Assembly (NCBI GenBank): GCA_951406725.2
Contig: OX597821.1
Span: 25,110,001 to 25,174,000 of the forward strand
Reading direction: 5' to 3'
Length of the DNA stretch: 64,000 bases
Source: Octopus vulgaris
Lineage: Eukaryota
This document shows, piece after piece, positions 17,416 through 53,690 of this stretch. Both the position numbers and the translations under genes were made by a program. The notes under the pieces were generated by a model. The model was not told the DNA's origin. It saw only the letters and a list, made by a program, of their open reading frames with translations, and ran no database searches. The first letter of the stretch is position 1. Every line of letters begins with the position of its first letter.

Positions 17416-17876
17416 TATATGATGTTTTACTAACCCTGAAGAAATAGATGTAAGATAAAGTGAATCCAAGTGGGACTTGAATTCAAAGCATAAAGGGATG
17501 AAAATAAAGACAACAAACCTTTTTGTTCTGCATGCCTCTATCTTAAAAGTAATTATGCTGTTATTTAACACCCAAGGTCATCCAAATCCATTAGATCCAT
17601 GATCACTAATGACTAAGCTGTCTTTCATTCATATCTCAGATATCCTTATCTAACATGTCCTTCCTTTTTTTAAGACAGAAAGGAGTGATTTGAGGAGATT
17701 TAGCTGTAATTTCTAACAGACTCAGATACCGCATAGAGATTTTGTTAATGGTTTGCATAACTAGCTGGTAAATAATATAGAATATATCTAGTTCTTACAG
17801 GTCTATATTTAAGAGATTAGGAATTATGAACATTATTTACATTCGATGGATATTTGTCCTCATCTTGTTTGTTCTT

Positions 17877-17922
17877 AACACAACGTTTCGGCTGATATAC
17901 CCTCCAGCCTTATTCAGGTGTC
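17877..17922 (-). ncRNA. Minimal type I hammerhead ribozyme motif (G8 mutated)
   Basis: GACAC-CTGAATA-AGGCTG..CAGCC-GAAACGTT-GTGTT: stem I GACAC/GTGTT, stem II GGCTG/CAGCC, palindromic ACGT stem III. Confidence 0.7.
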
Positions 17923-18063
17923 TTGGGGGAAATTTCGAGCCTGGGTTCTCGTTCCTAAGGTATTTTTCGATGTTATTATTATTATTATTATTATTGTTTA
18001 AGTCAATGCTTAGACTCTTGGGGTTAGTAGCATGTGCTCTTAACAACTACGCCATATGCCCAA

Positions 18064-18109
18064 GACACCTGAAGAAGGCTGGAGGGTATATCAGCCGAAA
18101 TGCTGTGTT
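18064..18109 (+). ncRNA. Minimal type I hammerhead ribozyme motif (stem III mutated)
   Basis: GACAC-CTGAAGA-AGGCTG..CAGCC-GAAA-TGCT-GTGTT; intact CUGANGA and GAAA core. Confidence 0.7.
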
Positions 18110-19069
18110 AACAACAAACAAAATGAGGACAAATATCCGTCAAATGTAAATAATATGAGACCATCATGCAAGTGATGTCCTTCATTCCCAATCTTCTATA
18201 AAAACATGTTTGGTGATATGGAAATATTATCTTACTTGGAAACAGATAAGGGTTGGTGACAGAAAGGGCATCCAGCTGTGTGTGTAAGTATATATATATA
18301 TATAGAAAGAGAGAGGTAGATGTGTGTGTATACATATATATATAGAGAGAGAGAGAGGGAGAGAGAGAAAGAGAGGTAGATGTGTGTGTATACATATATA
18401 TATATATATATATATATATATATAGAGAGAGAGAGAGAGAGAGAGAGAGAGAGAGAGGGAAAGAGAAAGAGAGAGGTAGATGTGTGTGTATACACACACA
18501 CACACAATGCAATGCATATCTATATATTTATCTGTCTCATTTGTTTTCCAATCAGCCTACTTTTGACAACATTATCCAAAATGTTCTCTTTATAAACAAT
18601 ATAGTACAATTTGAGCGAGATGATATAGCTGCCATTTCTAGCAGGTCAAGTTACACCATAGGGGGCTCCCTTGTAGTAATTACAAAAACAACAGTTTAAG
18701 AACAGTGGGTGTAACAAGGGTGACTCAACACAAATTATTCAGAAGGAATTCTAACATCTAGTCCTCCCCTCGCTACACAACACAATCAATTATTATAATA
18801 AATAGTAAAGGGCTCTTTTTTTTCTTTTGGTGGTAACAATAATTATAGTAGTGGTGGTTTATTAGACAGAGGGTTAAACTAGCAAGAACATTACAAATAC
18901 ACTAAGGCAGAAATGCATTCGCCGTGATTACTGTACAGAATTCAACAATTTTACGCCTTACTCCAACACACACACATACACACAAACCGTCGTGTACAAA
19001 GAACGAAAACACACACACACACATCAAGTAGTGTGTTCCAAGTTACCATGTAGAAACGGTATCACAAGA

Positions 19070-19077
19070 TGACGTCA
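19070..19077. promoter_or_regulatory. Palindromic CRE (TGACGTCA) in a CpG-retaining, non-repetitive-looking region
   Basis: Exact TGACGTCA where CpG density visibly rises (about 18.9 kb). Confidence 0.4.
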
Positions 19078-19560
19078 TGGCATCTGTGGCAGTGAGTGAA
19101 ACTGACTCCTCCCCTTCCTCTGACTACTACTACAACTACTACTACACTGCTGGAATTACTCATAGTAATTGTGGTGGTGGCGATAGTATCGGCGGCGGTG
19201 TCGGTGTATAGTAGACATTGGTGTATAGTTTATAACAGACAGTGGTGCTCGTGCATAGTTGAGGTGATGGTGGTGATAATGGTGCTGTAGTTTTTTAACA
19301 GACACTGGTGGCGAAGTGAGAGCGCTTCAACATTCGGGTTTAACATGAGCGTGCAATTATCAAGAATATAAAAAAAAAAAAAAAAAAACCCATCACCACC
19401 GCCGCCGCCACTAGCTCTGTACACACCAATGCCTTCACCACCTAACACGCACACAAACATACACACACATCAAAACTAGGTTAAAATATGTTTTGTAAAC
19501 ACAGACAAAATGGTGTGGCCGTGAGTGTATGTGTGCATATCTATATTTAGATAGACAGAT

Positions 19561-20310
19561 ATATATATATATATATATAGAGAGAGAGAGAGAGAGAGAG
19601 AGTTACGTGTATATATATATATATATATATATATATATATATATATATAGAGAGAGAGAGAGAGAGAGAGAGAGAGAGAGAGAGACGTGTATATATATAT
19701 ATAGAGAGAGAGACAGACAGACAGAGAGAGAGAGTTACATGTGTGTATATATATATATATATAGAGAGAGAGAGAGAGTTACGTGTATATATATATATAT
19801 ATAGAGAGAGAGAGAGAGGGAGTTACGTGTATATTATAGCAGGAGTGGCTGTGTGGTAAGTAGCTTGCTAACCAACCACACGGTTGCGGGTTCGGTCCCA
19901 CTGCGTGGCATCTTGGGCAAGTGTCTTCTGCTATAGCCCCGGGCCGACCAATGCCTTGTGAGTGGATTTGGTAGACGGAAACTGAAAGAAGCCTGTCGTA
20001 TATATGTATATATATGTATATGTGTTTGTGTGTCTGTGTTTGTCCCCCTAGCATTGCTTGACAACCGATGCTGGTGTGTTTAGGTCCCCGTCACTTAGCG
20101 GTTCGGCAAAAAGAGACCGATAGAATAAGTACTAAAAGGTGGTGCTCCAGCATGGCCGCAGTCAAAATGACTGAAACAAGTAAAAGAGTAAAAGAGTAAA
20201 GAGTATATATATATAGAGAGAGAGAGAGAGTTACGTGTATATATATGTGTGTGTATGTGTGTATTAAAGAGAGAGAGAGTTACGTATATATATATATATG
20301 AGAGAGAGAG
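19561..20310 (+). repeat. Compound (TA)n(GA)n-GTTACGTG microsatellite array split by a SINE
   Basis: GTTACGTG at 19602, 19778, 19822 and 20230; variants at 19684, 19734 and 20279; each follows (GA)n and precedes (TA)n. Confidence 0.85.
19839..20203 (+). mobile_element. Family B SINE (tRNA head, CORE-like CTTGGGCAAGTG body, AAAAGAGT tail)
   Basis: A-box-like TGGCTGTGTGG and B-box-like GGTTCGGTCCC; internal deletion relative to the 13768 copy. Confidence 0.9.
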
Positions 20311-51400: not shown

Positions 51401-52252
51401 CTCACTCTCTGTCTCTCTCTCTTACTCTTTCTTTCTCTCTGTTTTTCTCTCCCACTCTCTCTTTCTTTCACCCTCTCTCCCTTTCATTCTCACTTTCTTT
51501 CTCTTTCTTCCTTACTACTTCACTTCATTCCCTTCCTTTCCCTTTTTCTCTCTCTGTTTTCTTTTCTCTCTTTCACAATGTTTTAAGTTTCTTCTTTCTC
51601 TTTCATGTCTTACGCAACTGTCTGTCAGTGAATAAATAGGTTAAGGGCTGATGTACTAAATGTTATACACACACACACACACACACACACATACACACAC
51701 AAATAAATCCTTAATTAATTGAAATTACTCTCTTCGTTGCAAAAAGAAAACAAAACTCTTGCAACATTTGTTAACGCTTCCCAAAGTAAAGGGAGATAAT
51801 TTTTTTTAAATTAAAATTTATCTCCAACTTACTGTAGATACTTTGAGTAAAGACGTGATCTTTGTATGCGGAGGACGACTATGATGATGTTTCGGACTAT
51901 CTAACTTCGTCAGCAGAGGCATCTTATGGCATGGGCACAATACTCAGTTGCCCAGAGGCCTCACGAGTCTAGGGGACCAAATTCTGATGTATGTACGCTG
52001 TGGTTTGCTATCACTCAATAAAAAAAAAACTATATATGCTGCTAAGATAGTCCTGCTCGTCAGCATATTATAGTTTCCACAAGCCTGCTGGTCAAATTTG
52101 CCAATGATTTTTACATATCGAAGAGCTACAGATAACAAATAATGTTTGATCAGTATAATTTGCATAACTGAATGCGCGTAGCTTAGTGGTTAAGGTGTTG
52201 GACCTGTGATCGTAAGATTGTGGTCTTGATATCTGGACTGGGCGATGTATTG

Positions 52253-52664
52253 GGATCTTTTCGGTTTGAACGGCAGTTTTTTCTAGCGGAGTCATATGAA
52301 ATTGTCACCCATAATTATGACCCTAGAATCGATCTATTGCATTTCAATCTGTTTTAGGGTTAGGGTTAGGGTTAGGGGGGGTATCTTTTTTCTTCACAAA
52401 TGTAAATAAACCCAATCTGTTTCTTAAACGAGGGACATATTCATACGGCACAGAATGCTTTTTAACTCAATAGACGTCACTGATTGGTTGAAAGTGCAGA
52501 AATTGAAGAAAAAAACAACAAATATCTTACAAACTATAGAATTTTCCCAATAAAGCCAAGAGAAAAAGATGTTTTATAAACACATTCTACCAGTAAACGA
52601 AGTTTAAAATTTTTTAGTTACCTAGAAATTATGTTAAAAACTGCCGTTCAAACCGAAAAGATTC
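52253..52664. mobile_element. Merlin-like MITE with 8-bp TSD and internal (TTAGGG)4, inserted in a family C SINE
   Basis: TIR GGATCTTTTCGGTTTGAACGGCAGTTTTT / AAAAACTGCCGTTCAAACCGAAAAGATTC; TSD ATGTATTG (52245-52252) and ATGCATTG (52665-52672). Confidence 0.85.
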
Positions 52665-53194
52665 ATGCATTGTGTTCTTGAGTAAAACACTTCATTTCAT
52701 GTTGTTCCAGTCCACTCAACTGGTAAAAATGAGTAATCCTACGACTGACCAGTATTACGTCCAGGGAGGAATATATTCGCCAGAGGAACCGGGAAACTGG
52801 TCCTATGCACCTCACAGAGTAATGTGAATTAACCATAATTTGCAAACATAATGATGAGTCTTTATTGATCAGGCTATCAGATATCTTTATACATTACTGG
52901 TCATAATACGATTCTATTCTTCCTTTGACTGTACCTTTCTCGACCCGTTTGTTTTTCTTTTTTTTCTTTTTTACTTACTGTGTCGTCTTCTCATCAACTT
53001 GCAGGTCTTCCCAAATGAGAAATAAAGGAGATAACCCAAATGGTTCAATCACATGATTTGGGATAAATAAATTGGTTCTTAACTATTTGAAAAACATTTT
53101 TTTTTTCAGTTTGAGAAAGAAAACAGAAACCTAGCGGTAGTTATTAATGAATACAGGAGAAGGAGGGGGAAGAGGCAAGGGAGATGAAGAATTA

Positions 53195-53320
53195 CCTGTA
53201 TCAGTCGAAGAACAAGAGAAAATAGGTAAATACCAGGATTTGGTTAGGGAAATGCGACTACTCTGGAGGGTTTCTACAAAAGTGATCACAGTTGTTATAG
53301 GTGTACTAAATACTGTCGCC
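53195..53320 (+). mobile_element. R4/Dong restriction-like endonuclease C-terminal relic
   Basis: EQEKIGKYQDLVREMRLLWRVSTKVITVVIGVL (ORF 53147..53344). Confidence 0.7.
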
Positions 53321-53579
53321 AATAGACATAACAAGAAGACATAAAGAATTATCCTCTCAAGCTAATCATATATATATACGCTCTTCTACAGAAAGGGACA
53401 CAGAAAAAACAAGGAGAGAATATATATATATATATATATATATATATATATATATATATATATATATATATATATATATATATATATATATATATATATG
53501 ATTAGCTTGAGAGGATAATTCTTTATGTCTTCTTGTTATGTCTATTGGCGACAGTATTTAGTACACCTATAACAACTGT
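53288..53579. repeat. Perfect 81-bp inverted duplication around (TA)n and a pLTR piece
   Basis: 53288-53368 is the exact reverse complement of 53499-53579. Confidence 0.95.
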
Positions 53580-53585
53580 ATTTAT

Positions 53586-53690
53586 AGGGAGAGTTTACGA
53601 AAAAAACGAAAGACGAAGACAGGTGGTGTACAAAACAAACAGATGTATTAGTATAACGCTCAGGAATAGAAAAAGTCTTTTACGTTTTAT
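53586..53690 (-). mobile_element. Penelope-like pLTR fragment (the other part lies at 53377-53420)
   Basis: Same family as 29728 and 36054: AAAGACGAAGACAGGTG...GTATTAGTATAACGCTCAGGAA...AAGTCTTTTACGTTT. Confidence 0.75.

What the first reader, a model, noticed from the sequence alone, without database searches (positions are those of the whole stretch)
17832..53690. Recurrent coupling of Penelope/hammerhead remnants with fold-back repeats (4 loci)
Seen: four of the long inverted repeats in this window (17.8, 23.6, 37.8-39.5 and 53.3 kb) contain or directly abut a Penelope-like element or an HHR-like pLTR end. In three of them the duplicated arm includes non-PLE DNA (a mariner TIR, a SINE with its flank, an R4 relic). 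Known: PLEs carry minimal hammerheads in their pLTRs and often show inverted pLTR segments at their 5' junction. Inference: PLE insertion or repair here template-switches onto adjacent genomic DNA and produces long hairpins. In introns these would be dsRNA substrates for ADAR or Dicer, relevant because coleoids edit RNA heavily.
Basis: partly seen in the sequence, partly recalled or inferred. Interest (0 to 1): 0.75.

Follow-up and report, generated by a model that had tools for sequence, protein, structure and literature searches.

The report
Penelope-side hairpins of three different origins
The four mirror-image repeats are real but not one phenomenon: one is the ordinary back-to-back end of a Penelope jumping gene, one likely formed long after the insertion, and two likely arose when a new insertion copied nearby DNA backwards, an accident seen at about 1 in 100 such insertions and already described for the human L1 element.

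Summary
All four inverted repeats exist and touch Penelope-like (PLE) or hammerhead repeats. Their density is ordinary for this genome: 9 in the window, 193 in a 1.4-Mb sample. Locus 1 is the textbook PLE unit, with an inverted 5'-truncated second copy, a one-sided tail and no host DNA. A fifth such unit at 33.8 kb was missed. Locus 2 duplicates a mariner|PLE junction tail-to-tail and is likely younger than the insertion. Loci 3 and 4, and two more loci found in the sample, have inverted host DNA joined at or within about 10 nt of a PLE end. Their ages fit formation at insertion, like L1 templated insertions. The event is rare: 2 of 227 sampled PLE copies against 4 of 635 SINE copies (p=0.66). 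Non-PLE repeats show no excess near PLEs (5 of 50, 5.6 expected) but do near (TA)n. The general coupling is therefore not supported; a rare by-product is. No host exon or RNA was shown, so the ADAR idea is untested. This scan noted the standard unit often in this genome and host-flank copies twice in other genomes.

The parts
17799..17831 (-). Locus 1: one-sided ~33-nt PLE 'tail' at the 3' end of the direct copy
   Evidence: Same tail at one end only in other copies; library hit 17799-18158
17832..18059 (-). Locus 1: direct copy of family A, with tRNA-like head (A/B boxes read by eye), (AAT)n and a pLTR end carrying a decayed minimal hammerhead
   Evidence: 3518 candidates in G000; 22 other places of 40 scored cover the whole unit; ARAGORN calls no tRNA
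18059..18154 (+). Locus 1: inverted, 5'-truncated second copy of the same pLTR end (element DNA, no host DNA)
   Evidence: Arms differ from the family majority at 3 and 6 sites; 1 is shared, and that base is in 12 of 28 other copies; junction varies between copies
23028..23689 (+). Locus 2: mariner relic (transposase piece and right end); the last 62 nt lie in the arm
   Evidence: PF01359 E 6.8e-25; best other copies 85-91%
23628..23767 (+). Locus 2: left arm = mariner end + 78 nt of a 5'-truncated hammerhead repeat (family C, 3' half of a long-stem motif)
23768..23956 (-). Locus 2: inverted 3' end of the family C copy (spacer) and right arm; tail-to-tail, the opposite of the usual PLE layout
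33821..34105 (+). Fifth, unreported PLE-type unit: inverted 69-nt copy + direct copy + tail, hammerhead family E
   Evidence: 2646 candidates; relatives carry CTGAAGA...GAAAC GC GTA with a stem I
36055..37810 (-). Locus 3: 5'-truncated protein-coding PLE (older relative of family B), 3' end in (TA)n, cut at 37810
   Evidence: RT homologues 45-70% identical, two with GIY-YIG; tblastn; all 29 relatives continue differently past 37810
37811..38184 (-). Locus 3: left arm, an inverted copy of a SINE plus flank, joined at 0 nt to the PLE 5' break; likely the derived copy
38954..39455 (+). Locus 3: right arm, likely the original SINE with flank (intact 3' end, extra 73 nt)
53288..53367 (+). Locus 4: left arm, part of an old LINE relic (original copy, continuous with the relic upstream)
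   Evidence: also present in runs X3 and X4
53372..53419 (-). Locus 4: upstream piece of a young family B pLTR, broken inside the hammerhead
   Evidence: 0 differences in 43 sites from the family majority
53420..53579 (-). Locus 4: (AT)40 and right arm (exact inverted copy of 53288-53367)
53583..53701 (-). Locus 4: downstream piece of the same pLTR (order swapped against intact copies) plus a 14-nt locally copied filler
   Evidence: 0 differences in 98 sites; intact order in relatives

Best explanation
The four repeats have three origins: locus 1 is the element's own back-to-back end, locus 2 is likely a later fold-back repair of an already inserted copy, and loci 3 and 4 are likely templated inverted copies of host DNA made while a new PLE insertion was being joined. 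Locus 1 (layout shown; mechanism inferred from in vitro work on another PLE): both target strands are cut and extended on element RNA, leaving a direct copy and an inverted truncated copy with a tail at one end. Loci 3 and 4 and two sample loci (junction and age shown; steps inferred): the unfinished cDNA or the free target end switches to a genomic strand 0.1-1.5 kb away, copies 80-430 nt backwards, and rejoins, often at TA/TG microsatellites. This happens at roughly 1% of insertions and is not shown to be commoner than at SINEs. Locus 2 (inferred): a break or stalled fork at a 14-nt AT palindrome inside the old copy led to an inverted duplication with loss of downstream DNA. No function is indicated.
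For: Locus 1: 22 other whole units among 40 scored places, with a variable junction and a one-sided tail; 10-14-nt direct repeats flank 13 of 29 loci by a crude scan judged by eye; the arms diverged independently; same layout in PMC8557442 and PMC3846280 (passages). Locus 3: the junction lies exactly at the PLE break. Non-CpG arm divergence is 8.9% (33 of 369) against 7.2-11.6% expected if coeval. The chance of an arm end within 5 nt of a PLE end is 1.4%. Locus 4: arms 0 of 80 and PLE pieces 0 of 141 sites changed, pieces interleaved with the arm. X3 and X4 contigs run on for 18-20 unlaid letters after the AT run instead of entering the PLE piece. Independent cases: G000:C12:60020429-60022409 (none of the other scored family copies runs past the junction; then 316 nt at 95%; PLE 96-98% to relatives) and G000:C13:20030611-20032194 (98 nt at 91%; PLE 90-95%). 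Locus 2: both arms share 3 departures from the family majority, found in 0, 1 and 2 of 28 other copies. Arm-arm divergence is 2.9% while the copy is 5-7% from its family. X3 and X4 each hold a 68-nt junction contig with 2 differences (X4 laid on the left arm, X3 on the mirror positions of the right arm). If it is one sequence, that is what a single ancestral junction would give.
Against: No statistical excess over SINE ends or over shuffles at 50 nt. The exact-junction excess over random placement (2 vs 0.37, p=0.047) used a distance and one boundary chosen after seeing the data. None of 115 targeted PLE loci gave a clean case (only 1.5 kb of flank; 2 of the 7 flagged loci were read in full). 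No clear microhomology at the locus 3 junction. The dating intervals are wide. The second arm of locus 4 was not seen in contigs, and the X1 contig passes unbroken through the duplicated arm. The locus 2 inference assumes the X3 and X4 contigs are the same sequence and that their unlaid part differs from the window; the tool cuts reads at the (CA)n run and its tables were truncated.
Confidence: 0.6

Rival explanations
1. Chance plus a shared taste for (TA)n: local inverted duplications arise at fragile AT microsatellites by ordinary repair, PLEs insert in the same places, and the window was picked from hundreds.
For: Non-PLE repeats are enriched at (TA)8+ (15 of 50 vs 8.4, p=0.01) and not at PLEs. 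PLE density is at least 160 per Mb. The rate at SINEs is similar. The scan holds 423 windows of this genome.
Against: Junctions at 0-9 nt from PLE 5' breaks in locus 3 and in both sample loci, each with matching age. The locus 3 outer junction has no TA run. The (TA)n excess is inflated by unrecognised PLE-type repeats: both PLE-adjacent candidates checked first were dispersed families.
Confidence: 0.22
2. One reading: copying of host DNA into long hairpins is a regular, PLE-specific part of insertion and explains all four loci.
For: Three verified host fold-backs in 64 kb all touch PLEs; two more cases in 1.4 Mb; similar notes from two other genomes (unchecked).
Against: 2 of 343 PLE loci, upper 95% bound 2.1%. 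No excess over SINEs. Locus 1 has no host DNA. Locus 2 is tail-to-tail and likely later.
Confidence: 0.1
3. Gene conversion between independent inverted repeats (locus 3) or assembly error (locus 4) produced the high arm identity.
For: SINE pairs in inverted orientation are common (85 in 1.4 Mb). Locus 4 arms are identical, lie beside (AT)40, and the second arm was not seen in contigs.
Against: Locus 3 arms share flank beyond the SINE. The locus 4 left junction is in X1 with 0 differences. Both locus 2 arms are in X1.
Confidence: 0.08

Closest known systems
Insertion unit of endonuclease-bearing Penelope-like elements (Penelope/Poseidon, Naiad; PMC8557442, PMC3846280, PMC11167929)
   Same: Locus 1 and 33821-34105: inverted 5'-truncated copy at the 5' end, ~30-nt tail at one end, minimal hammerhead with a palindromic stem III (PMC4209133), AT-rich targets, direct repeats round many copies.
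   Different: The passages I read do not describe inverted copies of flanking host DNA at the junction; PMC3846280 describes capture of host DNA between direct pLTRs.
L1 templated insertions and local inverted duplications (10.1101/2024.08.27.596794; PMC11702581)
   Same: Non-element genomic DNA copied into the insertion junction; similar rarity (22 among about 3,598 L1 insertions; 2 of 343 here).
   Different: L1 templates are typically under 250 bp and within 15 bp of the site; here 80-430 nt, up to 1.5 kb away, inverted, germline and next to a PLE.
Fold-back inverted duplications at DNA breaks (PMC11724301, abstract; PMC10622511, search listing)
   Same: Locus 2: switch at a short palindrome, inverted duplication, likely loss of adjacent DNA. 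Locus 4: several switches at AT repeats and a short locally copied filler.
   Different: The yeast local fold-backs are mostly 5-34 bp; here 80-140 nt, with an inverted spacer at locus 2.
tRNA-headed hammerhead retroposons of Schistosoma (SM-alpha, Sj-alpha; recalled, from no call)
   Same: tRNA-like head and a hammerhead in one short dispersed repeat (family A).
   Different: Not compared by sequence.

Membership tests
EN+ PLE insertion unit (locus 1) | Inverted 5'-truncated copy adjoining the 5' end, head to head | tested here: met
   26 of 29 loci carry a self-inverted piece (biased, because the query held the repeat)
EN+ PLE insertion unit (locus 1) | 30-40-nt tail at one end only | tested here: met
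   17799-17831; either end in other copies
EN+ PLE insertion unit (locus 1) | Minimal type I hammerhead with palindromic stem III in the pLTR | tested here: met
   Intact motif in sample copies; both window copies carry core changes; Rfam gives no hit; cleavage not tested
EN+ PLE insertion unit (locus 1) | RT plus GIY-YIG ORF in the family | not tested
   None of the 9 PLE ORF pieces in the 1.4-Mb sample lay beside a family A end; no genome-wide search for it was run
EN+ PLE (locus 3 element) | PLE-type RT with C-terminal GIY-YIG relatives | tested here: met
   199 homologues at E<=1e-10; P0100 and P0117 carry PF00078 and PF01541; clade not resolved
EN+ PLE insertion unit (locus 2) | Head-to-head orientation, arms made of element DNA | tested here: not met
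   Tail-to-tail; 62 nt of mariner in each arm
Retrotransposon templated insertion, L1 type (loci 3, 4, C12, C13) | Non-element genomic template copied into the junction | tested here: met
Retrotransposon templated insertion, L1 type (loci 3, 4, C12, C13) | Template typically under 250 bp and within 15 bp of the site | tested here: not met
   Met only at locus 4 (80 nt, adjacent); the others are 98-430 nt and 0.4-1.5 kb away. The paper gives this as typical, not defining
Retrotransposon templated insertion, L1 type (loci 3, 4, C12, C13) | Formed in the same event as the insertion | tested here: inconclusive
   Ages are compatible; no full empty allele could be read
R4 clade LINE (locus 4 arm) | RT or endonuclease phylogeny | not tested
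   Only a match to another LINE end in the window; that ORF has no Pfam hit
ADAR/Dicer substrate | Transcribed hairpin with A-to-G edits or small RNAs | not testable with these tools
   Folds are very stable; no raw RNA reads were on offer

The most novel reading that the evidence does not exclude
The PLE enzyme that cuts and extends both target strands also switches onto host DNA up to 1.5 kb away at its 5' junction, at a rate above other retroelements. It would then have left a few thousand host-derived hairpins in this genome (2 per 1.4 Mb, wide error), a germline record of the unexplained step that builds inverted pLTRs, and some of these hairpins would be edited in introns.
Probability: 0.2. 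Interest if true: 0.6.

Novelty: new member of a known kind. Interest (0 to 1): 0.33.

Why it matters
How PLEs build their tandem and inverted ends is stated to be open (PMC8557442, passages). Junctions that carry inverted host DNA give testable break and switch points, and four such loci are now named. Templated insertions are known for L1. Two searches found no paper describing them for Penelope; most subscription journals are outside that library. For dsRNA supply the host fold-backs are minor: in 1.4 Mb there were 43 PLE self-repeats and 85 inverted repeat pairs against 2 PLE-joined host copies. Coleoid non-neural editing is directed at repeats (PMC9068888, passages), so the ordinary PLE and SINE hairpins are the larger pool.

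Tried and rejected
Rfam at E<=5: no hammerhead; only miRNA-like and other weak hits, mostly on microsatellites and hairpins. ARAGORN: no tRNA in the window or in 5 family A loci. Host gene: 123 of 136 non-repeat frames of 48 aa or more were scanned with Pfam (the other 13 were left out, mostly frames over transposons already named). Only a hAT piece and three sub-threshold hits came up. A PH-like stretch at 48711-48869 (E 0.0098) with possible splice sites found no homologue, so intron position is unproven. No RNA holder was listed; this is no evidence on expression. Two PLE-adjacent 'host' repeats in the sample (C17:40044454 and C15:60022001) proved to be dispersed repeat families and were dropped. 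L005 and L259 looked like hits: L005 has the target duplication inside an older repeat, and L259 is a pair of young SINE copies. Five other flagged loci were judged by eye. Two further PLE-near candidates (sample rows 36 and 180) were not verified. Rows dropped before counts: 15 repeats hand-classed as terminal repeats, satellites or other; 4 uncertain library entries removed; one library boundary and the locus 3 ORF end corrected by hand. The library is incomplete: it first missed family E. The planned enlargement of the sample by 600 kb, including the window's neighbours, was not obtained, so regional clustering is untested. A circular-RNA origin for the swapped pieces at locus 4 was considered; the break does not fall at the predicted cleavage site. 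Supplements of the cited papers were not read; the L1 figure on template orientation lies in a preprint supplement that I did not see.
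Full report
Observation. The four inverted repeats are present at the stated places: 96 nt at 92.7%, 140 nt at 97%, about 380 nt at 90% and 80 nt at 100%. The window lies at G000:C8:25110001-25174000 in a 2.8-Gb genome. To judge chance I took 28 blocks of 50 kb at fixed round positions on 20 contigs. They hold 193 inverted repeats with at least 50 aligned nt and a spacer under 2 kb; the window holds 9, about what that density predicts.

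Locus 1 (17799-18154). The direct copy reads, on the minus strand: tRNA-like head, (AAT)n, a pLTR end with a minimal hammerhead, and a ~33-nt tail. The second arm is an inverted, truncated copy of the same end. The whole unit recurs at 22 other places among 40 scored, out of 3518 candidates. The truncation point varies, the tail sits at either end, and 10-14-nt direct repeats flank 13 of 29 loci by a crude scan. The two arms depart from the family majority independently, at 3 and 6 sites with 1 shared, as expected if both were made at insertion. This is the layout described for PLEs in PMC8557442 and PMC3846280 (passages). PMC11167929 (parts 1-2 of 4 read) shows a PLE protein cutting and extending both strands and explains the tail. 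No host DNA is involved. A fifth unit of this kind, at 33821-34105, belongs to another hammerhead family. In the sample, 43 of 193 repeats were of this self type, a lower bound.

Locus 2 (23628-23956). Each arm is 62 nt of mariner end plus 78 nt of a 5'-truncated hammerhead repeat. The spacer is the inverted 3' end of that repeat, so the copies face tail to tail, unlike the usual unit. The switch lies at the centre of a 14-nt AT palindrome (read from the sequence). Both arms share three departures from the family majority that are found in 0, 1 and 2 of 28 other copies. The arms differ by 2.9%, while the copy is 5-7% from its family. Run X1 holds both arm types. Runs X3 and X4, which share four flank variants, each hold a 68-nt junction contig with two differences, laid on mirror positions of the two arms. 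One ancestral junction would give this, since the mariner majority matches the right arm at 23652 and the left arm at 23681. I infer that the PLE was already there and that a later fold-back duplicated the junction and removed downstream DNA. The letters of those contigs were not visible, so this is inference.

Locus 3 (36055-39455). A coding PLE relic lies on the minus strand. All 29 relatives continue past 37810, where the window switches at 0 nt into an inverted copy of a SINE and its flank. The arms are 89-92% alike while the best copy elsewhere is 72-77%, and they share flank beyond the SINE, so this is a local duplication. The PLE is 3.7-6.0% from its family at non-CpG sites, which predicts 7.2-11.6% between coeval arms; 8.9% is seen. 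The inner boundary falls in a TG/TA run like the one at the PLE 3' end. The likely path is cDNA synthesis to the break, a jump to the upstream strand, backward copying of about 430 nt, and rejoining at the microsatellite. No clear microhomology marks the first jump.

Locus 4 (53288-53701). An 80-nt piece of an old LINE relic is duplicated exactly. A young PLE end is split inside its hammerhead, and the two pieces stand in swapped order round the second arm, with a 14-nt locally copied filler. PLE pieces and arms all show no change (0 of 98, 0 of 43, 0 of 80). X1 bridges the arm|PLE junction with no difference; X3 and X4 run on unlaid after the AT run instead. Insertion and rearrangement are both very young and entangled, which fits repair with several template switches at AT repeats during or soon after insertion. 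The second arm was not seen in the listed contigs, so an artefact is not fully excluded.

Is the coupling general? I built a library from hammerhead scans, RT hits and self-inverted families: at least 160 PLE pieces per Mb. Of 50 repeats not classed as PLE-self, repeat pairs or terminal repeats, 5 touch a PLE within 50 nt against 5.6 in 2000 shuffles (p=0.68), and 15 touch (TA)8+ against 8.4 (p=0.01). After two proved to be dispersed families the count was 4 of 48 against 3.6. That class still holds unrecognised repeats, which dilutes the PLE test and inflates the TA test. An element-centred test found an abutting, locally best inverted arm at 2 of 227 PLE copies and 4 of 635 SINE copies (Fisher p=0.66). 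Random placement gave 0.37 (p=0.047, with distance and one boundary set after inspection). Both PLE cases were checked in the genome and look like locus 3: C12:60020429-60022409 and C13:20030611-20032194, each at a 5' break and with matching ages. None of 115 targeted PLE loci gave a clean case. Overall 2 of 343, upper 95% bound 2.1%. Three such loci in one window is an outlier, but the window was chosen among 423, and one of the three is likely secondary.

Comparison with what is known. L1 shows templated insertions in 22 among about 3,598 insertions, typically under 250 bp and within 15 bp of the site (10.1101/2024.08.27.596794, passages), and local inverted duplications at target sites (PMC11702581, passages). 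Break-induced fold-back insertions are described in yeast (PMC11724301, abstract). Searches for 'Penelope' with 'inverted duplication', 'target site' and 'flanking sequence' and with 'templated insertion' found no description for PLEs. One search listed PMC11167929 with one occurrence, which was not in the two parts I read. I also read part 1 of 5 of 10.64898/2026.07.22.740005 and passages of PMC4209133, PMC6962438 and PMC9068888. Earlier notes of this scan report the standard unit many times in this genome and host-flank copies in two other genomes; these are unchecked leads.

The ADAR idea. The hairpins would be stable if transcribed. No host exon was proven and no RNA was laid. Host fold-backs at PLEs are far outnumbered by PLE self-repeats and SINE pairs (2 against 43 and 85 in 1.4 Mb).

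Verdict. Observation confirmed; interpretation partly supported. One locus is textbook, one is likely a later repair event, and two are likely rare insertion accidents of a kind known from L1 and not found in print for PLEs in my searches. Interest 0.33.

Noticed in passing
   Followed up: yes
window 17832-18059 and L002-L030: Family A starts with a tRNA-like head, and nearly all direct copies shown begin at about the same base, which suggests Pol III transcription of a PLE-mobilised repeat.
   Followed up: partly
L053-L080 (family C): Hammerhead with a very long stem II (about 70 nt) and an 8-nt palindromic stem III. Several other families in the sample have 40-70-nt stems.
   Followed up: partly
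family B, window 53372-53687 and L082-L110: Core variant CUGUAGA instead of CUGANGA in a very young, abundant PLE.
   Followed up: no
window 38319-38381: Near-perfect 30-bp hairpin inside the locus 3 spacer; origin unknown.
   Followed up: no
window 39441-39517: Two SINE 3' ends facing each other across a TA run, right of locus 3.
   Followed up: no
window 48711-48869: Possible 125-nt exon (AG...GT) with a PH-like peptide, Pfam E 0.0098; no homologue found.
   Followed up: partly
window 19060-19400 and 20300-20900: CpG-rich stretches with TGACGTCA-type sites and a possible splice donor near 20737; promoter-like by eye.
   Followed up: no
window 31198-32658: Tc1-type transposon with 114-nt terminal repeats (Pfam HTH_Tnp_Tc3_2 and DDE_3).
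   Followed up: partly
G000:C17:40044454-40046273 (L175): Young dispersed family of at least 819 nt (2942 candidates, 95-98% alike) with an inverted piece at a fixed junction in many copies; no hammerhead or RT was assigned.
   Followed up: partly
G000:C15:60022001-60022204 (L163): Dispersed palindromic family with arms of about 100 nt and variable centres (331 candidates).
   Followed up: partly
G000:C12:60020429-60020683 (L148): A small element with terminal repeats is present in the original arm but missing from the inverted copy: either a later insertion or a polymerase skip over a hairpin.
   Followed up: no
G000:C1:20002104-20004763 and C12:60034406-60036512: Young tandem-plus-inverted hammerhead arrays (359-nt and about 490-nt units), retrozyme-like.
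   Followed up: no
runs X3 and X4: Labelled as different organisms but share four variants at 24025-24066; they probably represent one sister lineage.
   Followed up: no
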